A stretch of 11,201 nucleotides of DNA from a virus. Within the stretch, counting starts at the first letter, position 1. Each line of letters starts with the position of its first letter. Made by a program: the position numbers. Location: the UHGV virus genome UHGV-0222504; one strand, given 5' to 3'. This document shows positions 3,001-9,000 of this stretch, in pieces.

Positions 3001-6000
3001 GGAACTTAACCGCTGGTTTCGTGACGGAAGAGGACTTTATGTTCATGTTATTCGTTGGGAGCCAGAAACACAGCGCGTTATCTATCTTCGCAAAGACTAC
3101 CCGCATGAGTGCTTTAGTCCTTTGTGGAAATTCAGGCGTGATTTTGTTGAGTGTGAAGGACCACCAGCACATTGATTCTGCCATTCCGGGACGTTACACT
3201 GTTCAGGCACCTTATAAAGCGGGTGCCGGGATTGGCGTCCTGGAATTGATCAAGGCGATATATGACGCGCCAGCGTCTTTTTTATCGTCCGCATTTGCTC
3301 ACATCAAAGTTATGGTGGGCTGGGCGGGGGCATCGAAAGATGCGCCGGTTTCCTTGATCACCGGTTACGCCAACCCCGTTCAGTTCACCACCAGCGAAAT
3401 TGGCGTTTCCGGTGGTGGAAGTATTTCACCGATCAAGGAGGCTGCCATCATGGCTACTGTCCCAGCCCTCACTCGTCTGAATGATGAAGACTTACATAAA
3501 CTCAGTTATGTAACAACTGCACTACGTGCTCTGCGCAAGGTAACTCTTTCGGATCCGCAGGCACATCAGGTTCTGGTAGAAACCCTTCTTAACTTGCAGG
3601 CTGAACGTATTCGTCTGGCGGATAAGGCTAATTTTCATATTCACCGTCTCCTGAATATCAGCGGAGGGCATCGTCATGCTTAATCCGTTGCTCCTCAACA
3701 TTTACCGTTTATTTCAGCGTAAAAAAATATCAACACCCACAGTTGGGCAGTGGTACACCACGCCAGCAGGGCATGTTCTACGTGTCAGCCTGGTTGACCG
3801 TGAATGTCAGAAGGTGATTTGTGAACCGCTGGGCCGTAATTACCGCGTCAGTATGCCGCTTATAGCCTTTCGCTCCGGAAAAAACATGAAGCATCTCGGA
3901 GGTGCAGCATGAGTATGGAGCTGATGGTTAAAGCGATGAAAATTCGAGTGGGTAATCCATTGCGAAAACTGGTTCTGATCAAGCTGGCTGATAATGCCAG
4001 CGATCAGGGTGAGTGCTGGCCCAGCTACCAGCATATTGCTGACCAGTGCGAGATTAGCAAACGTTCTGTGATGAATCATATTGCGGCCCTTTGTGAGTCC
4101 GGGCTGGTAAAAAAAGTCACCCGGAAAGGTGAAAAAGGTAACTCAAGTAATATCTATCTCCTTCATCTGGATGGTGCAGGAGATTCACTAGGGGGTAGTG
4201 CAAATAATTCACTATCTGGTGCAGCAAATTCACCAGGTAGTGCAGGAGTTGCACTAGGGGGTAGTGCAGGAGATTCACCCAGAACCAGTCACTCTTTTGA
4301 ACCAGTCAAAGAACCAGTCAATGAACCAATAGCTGTTGGTGCATCTGCTGATGAGTCTGTGCGAGTTCGTTCAAACCGACCGGAATACTCTCCGGAGTTT
4401 GAGCAGGCATGGCTGGCATATCCCAAACGTGCTGGTGGCAATTCAAAATCTGCAGCCTTCAAAGCCTGGAAAGCCCGTTTGAATGAGGGGGTAAACCCCG
4501 AAACCATGCTGGAAGGTGTGAAACGCTATGCGGGCTGGGTATCTGCGATGGGTAACAGCGGCACACAATTTGTGAAACAGGCTGTCACGTTCTTTGGTCC
4601 GGATCGTCATTTCGAAGAATCCTGGGAAGTTCCTGCGGTATCTGCAGCCAGACGTGAGGACCCGTACTTCAAAGCCAGTTACGACAACGTGGACTACAGC
4701 CAGATCCCGGCAGGATTCAGGGGGTGATCATGAGTCTTTTGAATGAAGTTCAGAAATTCATTGAAGCCCATCCGGGGTGTACTTCCGGAGACATTGCGGA
4801 TGCTTTTGCAGGTTACTCACGGCAGCGCGTTCTGCAGTGGGCGTGTGGCTCACCGTTGTGAAGGAGATACACGCAGACATTTCCCACGCCTGACTGAGAG
4901 AGCGCAGGAGCCGGAACCACAACCAGTTCGTGAAACCAGACCTGTGCGCAATTTCTATGTCGGCACTAACGACCCGCGGGTGATTTTGTGCCTGACCCGC
5001 CAGGCGGAAGAACTGGAGTCCAGGGGCTTATACCGTCGTGCTGCAACGGTGTGGATGGCGGCATTCCGTGAAAGCCACTCCCAGCCAGAACGAAATAATT
5101 TTCTGGCGCGTCGTGAACGGTGTTTACGGAAAAGCAATAAGCGGGCTGCATCAGGTGAAGAGTGGTATCTGTCAGGGAATTACGTGGGGGCTTAATGAGT
5201 AATAAATATTGCCAGGCGCTGGTGGAACTGCGGAACAAACCAGCCCATGAACTGAAGGAAGTGGGCGATCAGTGGCGCACGCCGGATAACATTTTCTGGG
5301 GAATTAACACCCTGTTTGGTCCGTTTGTTCTGGATCTGTTCACTGACGGTGATAACGCCAAATGTGCCGCGTATTACACGGCGGAAGACAACGCGCTGGC
5401 ACATGACTGGTCAGAACGTCTTGCGGAGCTTAAAGGGGCTGCCTTTGGTAATCCCCCATACAGCCGCGCCAGTCAGCATGAGGGGCAATACATCACTGGC
5501 ATGCGTTACATCATGAAGCATGCCAGTTCCATGCGTGATAAAGGCGGGCGCTATGTTTTCCTGATCAAAGCTGCCACCAGCGAAGTGTGGTGGCCGGAAG
5601 ACGCAGACCATATTGCTTTTATTCGCGGGCGTATTGGTTTTGAACTGCCTGCCTGGTTTATCCCGAAGGATGAGAAGCAGGTGCCGACAGGCGCTTTCTT
5701 CGCTGGTGCTATTGCTGTTTTCGACAAGACCTGGAAGGGACCGGCAATCAGCTACATCGGGCGCGATGAACTTGAGGCATGTGGTGAGGCCTTTCTGGCG
5801 CAGGTTCGCCAGCAGGCGGAAAAACTGGTCAGGGAGATGGCGGCATGACGACGTTAACTCAATGCCAGCAGCAGGTGCTGGATATGCTGATTTCTTACCA
5901 GAAAGAACGTGGCTTCCCGCCAACCAATCAGGAGGTGGCAACCATGCTGGGATACCGTTCAGTGAATGCAGCGGTGGAGCATCTTCGCGCACTGGAGAAA

Positions 6001-9000
6001 AAAGGCGTCATCACGATAAAGCGTGGCGTGGCCCGGGGGATCACGCTTCATACCGCGGTGAAGGACGACGACAGCGAAGCGGTCGGTATCATCCGCGCAC
6101 TGCTTGCCGGTGAGGAAAACGCCAGGCTGCGTGCAGCCCACTGGTTACATGAGAGGGAGCTGAAAGTATGAAGCTAATACTGCCTTTTCCGCCCAGCGTG
6201 AACACGTACTGGCGACACCCCAACAAAGGGGCATTTGCTGGTAAGAGCCTGATAAGCGAGGCGGGGCGAAAATTTCAGAGCGCGGCGTGCGCAGCAATAG
6301 TTGAGCAGTTACGTCGTCTGCCGAAACCAACGTCGGCACCTGCTTCAGTGGAGATCGTGTTGTTTCCTCCGGATAACCGGATCCGCGATCTGGACAACTA
6401 TAACAAGGCGCTGTTTGACGCCCTGACCCACGCGGGTGTGTGGGAAGACGACAGACAGGTGAAAAGAATGCTGGTGGAGTGGGGACCGGTTATCCCGAAA
6501 GGGAAGGTCGAGATCACTATCAGTAAGTATGAGAAACCGGCGGGTGCAGCCGCCTGATTAAGAGGAGAAACGAAGTATGAATAATCTGATGGTCATTGAT
6601 GGTATTGAAGTTCGTCGTGATGCTTATGGGCGTTACAGCCTGAACGATCTGCATCGCGCAGCAGTAGCATCTGGTGCAAATGCCAGAACCAAGGAGCCAG
6701 GAAAGTTTCTTTCCAGCCAACAAACTGTTGAGCTTGTTCATGAATTGACCAACACCCAGAATTTGGGTGTTGACCCGGTGAGTGTGATTCATGGGGGAAA
6801 TGAACGGGGAACGTATGTCTGCAAGGAACTGGTGTATGCCTATGCAATGTGGATCAGCCCGTCATTCCATCTGAAGGTGATCCGTACTTTCGACATGGTA
6901 ACCAGCGCACCGGAAAAATTATCCGGACAGGCTGCTGACAAGATGCAGGCTGGTGTGATTCTGCTGGACTTTATGCGCCGGGAATTAAACCTGTCTAACT
7001 CTTCAGTGCTTGGTGCCTGTCAGAAACTCCAGGAGGCTGTTGGCTTACCGAATCTGGCACCGCGCTATGCCATTGATGCTCCTGCTGACGCGCCTGATGG
7101 CTCAAGCCGCCCCACGCTGTCACTGAGTGCACTGCTGAAGCAGTATGGTATCCGCCTGACAGCTAATCAGGCATATCACCAGATGGTGAAGCTGGGGATC
7201 GTCGAGCAGCGCGAACGATACAGCCGTACCGCGATTAACAACATCAAAAAATTCTGGTCGCTGACAGCGAAAGGCTGCATGTTCGGCAAGAACATCACCA
7301 GTCCCGCCAATCCGCGCGAGACGCAGCCGCATTTCTTCGAATCCCGATTCCCTGAGCTGTTAAAGCTGCTCGATACCGTTCATTGAGGTGACCGTGAGAG
7401 CACTACTGACCCCTGAAATTGCCCCGCGTATGGGGATCGTATTGTTCAGACCAGGTTCAGAGCTGATGCCCCTGTTTATGCAGGGGCGTGTCCTGCTGGA
7501 GCCTGAGCCGGAACGTTATTCATCTTTCGCCAGTGGTGCCGTACCGGCGGCATCACAACCGCTGGCGGATGATCCTGCCGTTCGGGCCGTGTTCCGCAAT
7601 GAGGCAGTGATCCGTCGTGCTGGTGGCGTGGAATGTCTTGAAAGCTGGTTACTTCGTGAAAAAGGCTGCCAGTGGCCTCATTCCGACTGGCACAGCGAGA
7701 ACATGACAACAATGCGACACGCGCCGGGCGCAATCCGTCTGTGCTGGCACTGCGATAACCAGCTGCGCGATCAGTTCACGGAACGGCTGGAATCAATGGC
7801 AACGGATAACTGTGCCCGCTGGGTGTTGTCTGTTGTGCGTCGGGATCTCGGTTTTGATGATAGTCACGTTGTGACAATGCCGGAACTGTGCTGGTGGCTG
7901 ATTCGTAATGACCTGGCGGATGCCTTACCGGAAAGTGCAGCCCGTAAGGCACTGAGATTACCAAAGCCTGTTGTGCCGTCTGTCACCCGGGAAAGTGACC
8001 TTGTGCCTTCGGTTCCTGCCACCAGCATCATCCAGGATAAGGCAAAAAAGGTGCTGGCGCTGAAAGTGGATCCGGAGTCGCCGGAGTCTTTTATGTTACG
8101 CCCAAAACGTCGCCGCTGGGTTAATGAAAAGTACACGCGTTGGGTTAAGACACAGCCGTGTGCATGTTGTGGAAAGCCCGCTGATGATCCCCACCACCTG
8201 ATAGGTCACGGTCAGGGTGGAATGGGTACTAAAGCGCATGACCTCTTTGTGTTGCCTTTGTGCAGAAAGCATCACGACGAGCTGCATGCGGATACCGTGG
8301 CATTTGAAGAGAAGTATGGCTCCCAGCTGGAGCTGATATTTCGTTTTATCGATCGTGCGCTGGCAATTGGCGTGCTGGCCTGATTTTGTGGAGAACGTTG
8401 ATGCGTGATATTCAAATGGTTCTTGAACGTTGGGGGGCATGGGTGGCAAATAATCACGAGGATGTCACCTGGTCGTCTATTGCTGCAGGATTTAAAGGAC
8501 TAATCCCTTCAAAAGTAAAATCCCGTCCGCAATGTTGTGACGATGACGCGATGATCATTTGTGGGTGCATGGCTCGCCTGAAAAAGAACAACAGCGATTT
8601 GCACGATTTATTAGTGGATTATTATGTAGGTGGTATGACGTTTATGGCGCTTGCCCGTAAACATGGGCGTTCTGATTGCTGGGTTGGGCGTTTATTGCAA
8701 AAGGCTGAAGGTGTAGTTGATGGCATGTTAATGATGTTAGAAATTGAGCTAGAGATGGATCGTTAGAAGACCTCTTATTGAGGGGGTAATTGAATCAGTT
8801 TAATGTGTGGGGAGTCGATTTATTCTCCCCATTTTATTTAATTAATTTACTTAAGGTTTTAATTCATCAAGACGTTGTTGGATAGTGTTTTTGCTTGCGT
8901 TGTCTGTTATAGCCATTTGTTGTACTTGCCCCATTGCCATTTGAGTTTCCATCCACATATCGGCCCACACTTTTGTATCGTTATTAACTTGAGCGATAGT

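What the first reader, a model, noticed from the sequence alone, without database searches (positions are those of the whole stretch)
5845..6171. Phage-encoded LexA DNA-binding domain without the autocleavage domain
The first ~68 residues align closely with the LexA N-terminal winged-HTH domain, but the protein ends after a 40-aa helical-looking tail and has none of the S24 peptidase elements. Such a protein could occupy SOS boxes in a RecA-insensitive way, either holding SOS-controlled phage or host genes repressed, or interfering with LexA. It sits in the nin-like region between a Dam-family MTase and rusA, and a strong SOS-box-like site occurs elsewhere in the window.
Basis: partly seen in the sequence, partly recalled or inferred. 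Interest (0 to 1): 0.65.

Follow-up and report, generated by a model that had tools for sequence, protein, structure and literature searches.

The report
Prophage LexA-type DNA-binding protein, no protease
This lambdoid prophage gene encodes a small, conserved protein that keeps the DNA-binding head of the bacterial SOS repressor LexA but replaces the self-cleaving half with a short helical tail; it is common and already annotated, but nobody has tested its function.

Summary
ORF 5845-6171 (+) encodes a 108-aa protein. Residues 1-65 match the whole Pfam LexA_DNA_bind profile (E 3e-19). They are 43% identical to E. coli LexA over 90 aligned residues, and the model superposes on the LexA domain at 1.6 A. 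There is no Peptidase_S24 part.

It is not a pseudogene. Homologues of 106-135 aa with the same about 30-aa two-helix tail occur in prophages of nine enterobacterial genera, always in the nin region. dN/dS is 0.13.

It is not new as an object. The gene lies in 2233 of 5426 complete E. coli genomes and in 50 phage records, named "LexA family transcriptional regulator". I found no functional study. The closest characterised analogue is GIL01 gp6, a LexA-DBD-only activator with changed specificity.

- Four of five LexA base-contact residues are kept.
- Glu44 is never kept in the family, and residues 44 and 45 vary between subfamilies.
- The one strong SOS box in the window (9930-9949) also occurs in a phage whose 14-kb nin/Q region lacks the gene.

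Most likely this is a dimeric, uncleavable LexA-type regulator made during lytic growth. Its targets are unknown.

The parts
5845..6171 (+). Gene for the 108-aa stand-alone LexA-type DNA-binding protein (stop codon included)
   Evidence: ORF list and sequence. Pfam, PHROG, NCBIfam and PDB matches. Purifying selection, dN/dS 0.13 against a Salmonella homologue.
5845..6039 (+). Residues 1-65: LexA_DNA_bind winged helix-turn-helix domain
5962..6000 (+). Residues 40-52: recognition helix (VNAAVEHLRALEK). With S39 just before it, the contact set reads S39, N41, A42, V44, E45.
   Evidence: Helix 40-52 in the AF2 model. Alignment to LexA. Contact residues from PMC13416735. Variation across the family.
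6049..6066 (+). Residues 69-74: variable, acidic, indel-prone linker
   Evidence: pLDDT falls to 61 for residues 71-80. Indels and low conservation in the alignments.
6067..6153 (+). Residues 75-103: conserved two-helix hairpin tail (helices 75-88 and 93-103). Inferred to be an oligomerisation or partner-binding element.
   Evidence: AF2 secondary structure, pLDDT about 85. Motif EAVxLLRALL...ARxRAxxxL conserved down to 40% identity. dN/dS 0.27. No Pfam or PDB match.
5162..5848 (+). Upstream phage Dam-family N6-adenine methyltransferase. Its stop codon overlaps the start of the LexA-like gene.
   Evidence: PF05869, E 9e-46. ATGA overlap.
6168..6557 (+). Downstream RusA Holliday-junction resolvase. 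Its start codon overlaps the stop of the LexA-like gene.
   Evidence: PF05866. Overlap seen in the sequence.
9930..9949 (.). Canonical-looking SOS box inside codons 3-9 of the N6_N4 DNA methyltransferase gene. It is a candidate target only and more probably serves host LexA.
   Evidence: Matrix score 22.7 bits, the only strong site in the window. Conserved at this position in diverged phages, including phiNP, whose 14-kb nin/Q region lacks the LexA-like gene.
1290..1964 (-). The prophage's own S24-type (cleavable) immunity repressor. The LexA-like protein is therefore not the immunity repressor.
   Evidence: Peptidase_S24 PF00717, E 2e-26.

Best explanation
The gene encodes a functional, sequence-specific DNA-binding regulator. 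It descends from the N-terminal domain of a proteobacterial LexA, with the S24 cleavage and dimerisation domain replaced by a flexible linker and a conserved helical hairpin of about 30 aa.

Shown:
- The domain identity.
- The absence of any protease or conserved cleavage site.
- Conservation under purifying selection.
- A position inside the tightly packed delayed-early nin operon, with start and stop codons overlapping the neighbours and no promoter-like site in the 1.1 kb scanned upstream.

Inferred:
- The gene is silent in the lysogen and is made from pR after induction or infection.
- The hairpin supplies the dimerisation that LexA gets from its C-terminal domain, so the protein binds a palindrome.
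- Lacking the S24 domain, it cannot be inactivated by RecA*.

My committed guess for the target is palindromes of the SOS-box class (CTG-N10-CAG). On this reading the protein re-imposes repression on some LexA-controlled promoters, host or prophage, after host LexA has been destroyed.

I put the generic part (a dimeric, RecA-insensitive LexA-type regulator of lytic growth) at about 0.8. I put the SOS-box-class target at about 0.4. The confidence given for this entry (0.4) is for the whole mechanism including the target.
For: Domain and fold.

Real gene, not a remnant:
- Homologues are full-length at 106-135 aa in Escherichia, Citrobacter, Salmonella, Cronobacter, Klebsiella, Enterobacter, Atlantibacter, Kosakonia and Raoultella, with the same tail.
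- dN/dS is 0.13 overall, 0.04 for the DNA-binding domain and 0.27 for the tail.

DNA binding retained: S39, N41 and R64 are invariant, and four of five LexA contact residues are kept here.

Operon position and synteny:
- The order (PerC)-(Dam)-LexA-like-(RusA)-KilA-N-DUF968-Q recurs across genera.
- No promoter-like site lies in the 1.1 kb scanned upstream.

Pointers towards an SOS link:
- The gene moves between different immunity, Q and late modules with no adjoining intergenic DNA that could hold its own operator. A constant target, such as the host, fits this.
- In Klebsiella it sits directly downstream of a dinI gene with a near-perfect SOS box.
- Strong SOS boxes are frequent in carrier prophages.

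The tail is a separate unit on a low-confidence linker and is too small to be a stable monomeric domain (the second point is inference).
Against: - No binding, dimerisation or expression data exist.
- Glu44 is replaced in every family member. Positions 44 and 45 vary between subfamilies (for example LL in the Klebsiella type), although all hosts share the same SOS box. 10 of 11 sampled LexA-type sequences that keep the cleavage-site motif have Glu44.
- GIL01 gp6 shows that a phage LexA-DBD-only protein can evolve a new specificity and act as an activator.
- Carrier loci from four of the nine prophage lineages scanned have no SOS box of at least 12 bits within about 6 kb of the gene (L005, L010/L011, L014, L015).
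- The methyltransferase SOS box occurs in phiNP, whose 14-kb nin/Q region lacks the gene.
Confidence: 0.4

Rival explanations
1. A gp6-like regulator with its own specificity. The protein binds a palindrome distinct from the host SOS box, on the phage or the host. It may activate rather than repress, as GIL01 gp6 does at the late promoter P3.
For: - gp6 is a truncated LexA homologue that binds GaCACAnnTGTGaC rather than a LexA box and activates P3.
- Residue 44 is never Glu in the family, and residues 44 and 45 differ between subfamilies.
- Canonical LexAs keep Glu44.
- Stand-alone LexA-DBD proteins are widespread in unrelated phages.
Against: - No candidate operator was found. The gene has no adjacent intergenic DNA.
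- The palindromes shared by carrier phages all lie in homologous coding sequence.
- Late-gene activation in these phages is already provided by Q.
- The E. coli type keeps four of five LexA contact residues.
Confidence: 0.33
2. The strict form of the first reader's idea: a competitive, uncleavable LexA surrogate. It occupies canonical SOS boxes genome-wide, including 9930-9949, and shuts the whole SOS regulon down or interferes with host LexA.
For: - The DNA-binding domain is 43-49% identical to E. coli LexA, with S39, N41, A42, E45 and R64 conserved.
- A strong SOS box lies in the same prophage.
- All 27 phage records with a near-identical methyltransferase 5' region also carry the gene.
Against: - That co-occurrence can be explained by linkage: the two features lie 4 kb apart and 15 of the records are near-clonal Stx2c phages.
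- phiNP has the box, but its 14-kb nin/Q region lacks the gene.
- Glu44 is lost family-wide, and the Klebsiella type has Leu44 and Leu45.
- There is no C-terminal domain through which heterodimers with LexA could form.
Confidence: 0.2
3. A non-transcriptional role. The winged helix serves as a DNA- or protein-docking module for the neighbouring recombination and replication functions (Dam, RusA, DUF968/HNH), or the tail binds a host protein such as RecA, LexA or RNA polymerase.
For: - The gene is translationally coupled to Dam and RusA.
- The tail has no known homologue.
- Winged-helix domains such as DnaD_N give weak hits.
Against: - Dam and RusA are each dispensable neighbours: SfIV lacks Dam, and the Klebsiella loci lack both.
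- The invariant residues are the LexA DNA-contact residues.
- No PADLOC defence association was found.
Confidence: 0.08
4. A decaying fragment of a full-length LexA-like repressor gene, that is, a pseudogene.
For: The alignment to LexA runs on weakly through the linker to an Ala-Gly at residues 88-89, opposite LexA Ala84-Gly85.
Against: - Length and tail are conserved across nine genera.
- dN/dS is 0.13.
- rusA follows immediately, with no S24 remnant.
- The Ala-Gly is not conserved in the family.
Confidence: 0.02

Closest known systems
E. coli LexA (SOS repressor), N-terminal DNA-binding domain (PDB 1lea/1leb, 3jso)
   Different: No Peptidase_S24 domain, no Ser/Lys dyad and no conserved Ala-Gly site. 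Glu44 is replaced by Val. The C-terminus is a two-helix hairpin that LexA lacks. The gene is phage-encoded in the nin operon.
Bacillus thuringiensis phage GIL01 gp6 (Fornelos et al. 2018, PMC6182141)
   Same: A phage-encoded truncated LexA homologue consisting of the DNA-binding domain only. It is made from an early promoter during lytic development and binds a palindrome.
   Different: - gp6 derives from a Firmicute LexA and ends shortly after the wing, with no conserved helical tail.
- It is a tectivirus protein that activates the late promoter.
- No tectivirus record appeared among the tblastn hits to the phage collection at E<=1e-6, so the two are probably independent captures of a host LexA domain.
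- The function of the protein studied here is untested, and its phage already has a Q antiterminator.
BlaI/MecI-type repressors (winged helix plus C-terminal helical dimerisation domain)
   Different: No sequence relationship: there is no Penicillinase_R Pfam hit. The tail has two helices, not three. This is an analogy only.
PHROG 362 / NCBI 'LexA family transcriptional regulator' of lambdoid prophages (e.g. SfV orf42, cdtI, Stx2c phages; pham 237 of PMC8136144)
   Same: This is the family the protein belongs to. It matches the PHROG over its full length at E 7e-59 and is 95-100% identical to annotated proteins.
   Different: Nothing. The family has a name but no tested function.

Membership tests
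LexA (TIGR00498 equivalog, SOS repressor) | N-terminal LexA_DNA_bind winged HTH | tested here: met
LexA (TIGR00498 equivalog, SOS repressor) | C-terminal Peptidase_S24 domain with the Ser/Lys dyad | tested here: not met
   The protein ends at residue 108. There is no PF00717 hit. TIGR00498 matched only profile positions 1-91 of 203, at 70.6 bits against a cut-off of 110.95. rusA follows directly.
LexA (TIGR00498 equivalog, SOS repressor) | Conserved Ala-Gly autocleavage site | tested here: not met
   An Ala-Gly at residues 88-89 aligns with LexA Ala84-Gly85. Homologues have AK, AN, VG, TR, DD or AE at that position.
LexA (TIGR00498 equivalog, SOS repressor) | Binds CTGT-N8-ACAG SOS boxes | not testable with these tools
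   Only indirect evidence: four of five contact residues are kept, and Glu44 is lost.
LexA (TIGR00498 equivalog, SOS repressor) | RecA*-stimulated self-cleavage | not testable with these tools
   Expected to be absent, because the catalytic domain is missing.
PHROG 362 / enterobacterial prophage short LexA-DBD family | Full-length match, about 106-135 aa, with the DNA-binding domain plus the conserved EAVxLLRALL...ARxRAxxxL tail | tested here: met
   PHROG 362 E 6.8e-59 over residues 1-108. Alignments A1-A3.
PHROG 362 / enterobacterial prophage short LexA-DBD family | Location in the nin region upstream of DUF968 and the Q antiterminator | tested here: met
   Window. E. coli, Cronobacter, Klebsiella, Salmonella and Citrobacter loci and five phages.
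GIL01 gp6-type stand-alone LexA-DBD phage regulators | Phage-encoded LexA DNA-binding domain without the S24 domain | tested here: met
   gp6 is described in PMC6182141.
GIL01 gp6-type stand-alone LexA-DBD phage regulators | Detectable sequence kinship with gp6 or tectiviral homologues | tested here: not met
   tblastn against 50,697 phage records at E<=1e-6 listed only enterobacterial phages: 60 of the 61 hits were shown, none a tectivirus. The gp6 sequence itself was not at hand for a direct comparison.
GIL01 gp6-type stand-alone LexA-DBD phage regulators | Binds a phage promoter palindrome and activates late transcription | not testable with these tools
   No candidate operator was found.
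BlaI/MecI (Penicillinase_R) | Penicillinase_R profile match | tested here: not met

The most novel reading that the evidence does not exclude
Roughly 40% of E. coli strains carry a prophage-encoded, RecA-proof 'second LexA'. It would be made only once a lambdoid prophage, including Stx2-converting phages, has been induced. It would then re-close a subset of SOS-box promoters after host LexA is destroyed. Candidate promoters are the LexA-controlled antirepressors of rival prophages, colicin or toxin modules, error-prone polymerases, and the phage's own SOS-boxed methyltransferase. This would give the induced phage control over the host's DNA-damage programme and over competing mobile elements.
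Probability: 0.25. Interest if true: 0.7.

Novelty: new member of a known kind. Interest (0 to 1): 0.4.

Why it matters
The SOS response decides prophage induction, Shiga-toxin release, mutagenesis and antibiotic tolerance. A LexA-type DNA-binding protein that RecA cannot inactivate would be a simple way for a phage to rewrite that response. This one is carried by prophages in about four of ten complete E. coli genomes and by Stx2a, Stx2c, cdt and Shigella serotype-converting phages.

If it binds SOS boxes, it is an unrecognised layer of SOS control in pathogenic E. coli. If it binds something else, it is a second, independent case beside GIL01 gp6 of a phage re-tooling the host LexA domain. 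Either way the experiment is easy and has not been done. As a sequence feature it is already annotated and unsurprising.

Tried and rejected
- **Pseudogene reading.** Rejected on conservation of length and tail, and on dN/dS.
- **Tail as a retained LexA cleavage region.** The Ala-Gly is not conserved. A second short match, AVGIIR against LexA 192-197 AVGVIR, has E 0.5 and I treat it as chance.
- **Tail-only profile against PDB and Pfam.** Nothing significant: best hits E 1.1 and a sub-threshold NIL-domain match.
- **Dimer modelling.** Dimerisation therefore remains an inference.
- **Operator hunt.** Inverted repeats in the window and perfect palindromes shared by seven carrier loci gave only sites inside homologous coding sequence. 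No credible operator emerged.
- **Co-occurrence of the gene with the methyltransferase SOS box.** It holds in 27 of 27 phage records. I discounted it because of physical linkage, clonality and the phiNP exception.
- **PADLOC.** No defence-system association.
- **Literature.** Eight successful full-text searches found no functional study of this family. One further search failed on a term-length limit.
- **LexA-DNA structure paper (Zhang et al. 2010).** Not held. The contact residues are therefore cited second-hand from PMC13416735.

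
Full report
**What is there**

The window is the early-right arm of a lambdoid prophage. Pfam gives the following genes:
- an S24-type immunity repressor, 1290-1964 (-)
- a CII/CP76 regulator, 2287-2850
- an Ash-family ORF, 2847-3683
- an HTH_36/DnaD_N replication protein, 3909-4727
- a PerC-family protein, 4743-5195
- a Dam-family methyltransferase, 5162-5848
- the ORF in question, 5845-6171
- RusA, 6168-6557
- a KilA-N protein, 6577-7386
- a DUF968/HNH protein, 7388-8383
- antiterminator Q, 8386-8766

An N6_N4 DNA methyltransferase lies further on at 9922-10974.

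The ORF's ATG overlaps the Dam stop codon (ATGA), and its stop overlaps the rusA ATG. A Shine-Dalgarno-like AGGGAG lies 8 nt upstream. No promoter-like site lies in the 1.1 kb scanned upstream. The gene therefore reads as part of the delayed-early nin operon, which is inferred to be silent in the lysogen.

- Residues 1-65 cover the whole Pfam LexA_DNA_bind profile (69 bits, E 2.9e-19), and no Peptidase_S24 match appears.
- NCBI's lexA equivalog model matches only its first 91 of 203 positions and scores below its cut-off.
- The best solved structures are E. coli LexA and its isolated DNA-binding domain.
- An AlphaFold2 model built on 33 family sequences has pLDDT 83. It shows a three-helix winged HTH (helices 6-22, 28-35 and 40-52; strands 56-58 and 66-68), a low-confidence linker, and two helices at 75-88 and 93-103.

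**It is a real gene family, not a broken LexA**

Close homologues of 84-99% identity are all 104-108 aa. An exhaustive search of 1.84 billion cluster representatives found 4606 hits. Among them are full-length relatives down to about 40% identity that keep the same tail.

A profile search placed these relatives in Cronobacter, Klebsiella (130 aa, with an N-terminal extension), Enterobacter, Salmonella, Atlantibacter, Kosakonia and Raoultella. All carry PF01726 as the only LexA-related domain, with no Peptidase_S24.

The tail motif EAVxLLRALL-x4-6-ARxRAxxxL is conserved across the family. Against a Salmonella homologue, dN/dS is 0.13 overall, 0.04 for the DNA-binding domain and 0.27 for the tail.

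The tail matches nothing in Pfam or the PDB. A hairpin of about 30 residues on a flexible linker is unlikely to be a stable monomeric domain. I therefore infer that it mediates dimerisation, replacing the role of LexA's C-terminal domain, or binds a partner.

**Genomic context is conserved**

The order (PerC)-(Dam)-LexA-like-(RusA)-KilA-N-DUF968-Q recurs in:
- an E. coli prophage whose copy of the gene is 100% identical
- Salmonella
- Citrobacter
- Cronobacter, without the KilA-N gene
- phages SfIV, mEp460, 2H10, Kati and Stx2a_WGPS2

These prophages differ in immunity region, Q type and late region. Dam and RusA are each optional. In Klebsiella the order is dinI-orf-LexA-like-small ORF-DUF968-Q-like. 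There, dinI is preceded by a near-perfect SOS box overlapping its promoter. Nowhere does the gene have adjoining intergenic DNA that could hold a private operator.

**It is already known as an object**

The gene occurs at 95-100% identity in most cases in 2233 of 5426 complete E. coli genomes, with up to four copies per genome. It also occurs in 50 phage records: Stx2c, Stx2a, cdtI, SfII, SfIV, SfV, mEp460 and others.

Its annotated names include 'LexA family transcriptional regulator', 'lexA DNA-binding domain protein', 'LexA-like protein' and, wrongly, 'RecA-mediated autopeptidase'. It matches PHROG 362 ('transcriptional repressor') over its full length.

A Stx-phage pangenome paper lists a pfam01726 'LexA family transcriptional regulator' pham (pham 237, 15 phages), which is probably this gene, without further study (PMC8136144). 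Eight successful full-text searches found no functional work on it.

Stand-alone LexA-DBD proteins of 65-150 aa are also common in unrelated phages. One has been characterised. GIL01 gp6 is a truncated LexA homologue that binds GaCACAnnTGTGaC, which is not the Bacillus LexA box, and activates the late promoter P3 (PMC6182141).

**Does it bind SOS boxes?**

For:
- Of the five E. coli LexA residues reported to contact DNA (Ser39, Asn41, Ala42, Glu44, Glu45; PMC13416735 citing Knegtel 1995), this protein keeps four: S39, N41, A42 and E45.
- S39, N41 and the wing Arg64 are invariant in 33 family members.
- The gene moves without a linked cis site, which fits a constant target such as the host regulon.
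- The dinI neighbour in Klebsiella suggests an SOS theme.

Against:
- Position 44 is never Glu in the family. It is V, A, L, F, T or N.
- Position 45 is L, T, I or G in 10 of the 33 members.
- 10 of 11 sampled LexA-type sequences that keep the cleavage-site motif have Glu44.
- All these hosts share the same SOS box, so a family devoted to that box should not vary at these positions.
- The gp6 precedent shows that specificity can drift.

I conclude that the target is probably a palindrome related to the SOS box. Whether it is the canonical box is open.

**The 9930-9949 site**

TACTGTAAAAATAAACAGTG is the only strong SOS box in the window. It scores 22.7 bits on a matrix built from 27 E. coli boxes recalled from memory. 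Those boxes have a median of 20.8 bits, and the runner-up in the window scores 10.7. One of 200 mononucleotide shuffles reached the same score.

The site lies in codons 3-9 of the N6_N4 methyltransferase gene. An SOS-box-scoring site persists at this position in diverged homologues even where the encoded residues change:
- phiNP: identical
- Klebsiella phage Kp4866-6: 23.2 bits
- a Salmonella prophage: 20.7 bits
- Stx2a_WGPS2: 23.6 bits, with only 76% nucleotide identity

. This suggests selection on the box itself.

All 27 phage records with a near-identical methyltransferase 5' end also carry the LexA-like gene. However, the two features are only 4 kb apart and 15 of the records are near-clonal. 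phiNP has the box while its 14-kb nin/Q region has no LexA-like gene. Host LexA is the simpler reader of this box. The phage protein remains a testable candidate.

**Verdict**

The object is a member of an already annotated and very common prophage family. It belongs to the known kind of phage 'LexA head without the protease', typified by GIL01 gp6.

What sets it apart:
- the conserved helical tail
- the probable independent origin from a proteobacterial LexA
- the family-wide loss of Glu44
- the complete lack of experimental data despite its presence in Stx phages

Most likely it is a dimeric, RecA-insensitive regulator made during lytic growth (about 0.8). I put binding to SOS-class palindromes at about 0.4, a private specificity like gp6 at about 0.33, and other roles at about 0.1. 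Interest is moderate. It would be high only if the SOS re-repressor reading proves true.

Noticed in passing
window 9922-9949; also L006 7067, L007 7071, L008 8904, L013 10597, L016 11072: A strong SOS box sits inside codons 3-9 of the N6_N4 DNA methyltransferase gene, downstream of Q. An SOS-box-scoring site is kept at this position in Citrobacter, Klebsiella, Salmonella and Stx2a phages even where the encoded amino acids change. This suggests a LexA-controlled phage methyltransferase. I found no paper on it.
   Followed up: partly
L001 4549-4568; L013 1546-1565; L016 233-252: Near-perfect SOS boxes (TACTGTTTTTACATACAGTA and TACTGTTTTTATATACAGTA) lie inside the coding sequence of S24/XRE cI-like repressor genes of other immunity types (an E. 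coli O152 prophage, mEp460, Stx2a_WGPS2). The immunity region of this window has none.
   Followed up: no
L012 (SfIV) 6765-6784: A strong SOS box (TACTGTATTTATGAACAGTA) lies about 100 bp upstream of the KilA-N gene of SfIV, just downstream of the LexA-like gene. In the window, the homologous stretch 6540-6786 is different and has no box.
   Followed up: no
L002-L004 (Klebsiella) 5362-5425: A prophage dinI gene has a consensus SOS box (TACTGTTTATTTATACAGTA) overlapping its promoter. It is followed without large gaps by an ORF, the LexA-like gene, DUF968 and a Q-like gene. The LexA-like gene may therefore be SOS-inducible there.
   Followed up: partly
window 3207-3283 and 3308-3395 (+): Rfam matches above gathering score to the isrK Hfq-binding sRNA (64 bits) and the C4 antisense RNA (82 bits). 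Both lie inside the mechanical ORF 2847-3683, which carries an Ash-family match. That ORF may be over-called, and the region may be a P1/P7-like c4-type antisense immunity module.
   Followed up: no
proteins P0130, P0132, P0156, P0160; P0212; L007 2247-2750: Other architectures built on the LexA DNA-binding domain exist: tandem double domains in one chain (140-222 aa), a fusion to an HNH_3 nuclease domain, and in Klebsiella phage Kp4866-6 a fusion to an unrelated C-terminal part of about 90 aa.
   Followed up: partly
window 9866-9893: A conserved inverted repeat (CTGCTTTAGC/GCAAAAGCAG) lies in the non-coding stretch just upstream of the methyltransferase gene, which is more than 90% conserved. 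It is shared with phiNP and Kp4866-6. Its function is unknown.
   Followed up: no
window 7468-7487: A perfect GC-rich palindrome, GCCCCTG-TTTATG-CAGGGGC, lies near the 5' end of the DUF968 gene. It is conserved in six of the seven carrier loci compared. It may be an RNA hairpin or a protein site.
   Followed up: no
protein P0190: A full-length 209-aa LexA with a normal cleavage region has Val44 and Thr45 in the recognition helix, like the phage family, instead of Glu-Glu. It may be a LexA paralogue with a different box and could help predict the specificity of the phage protein.
   Followed up: no
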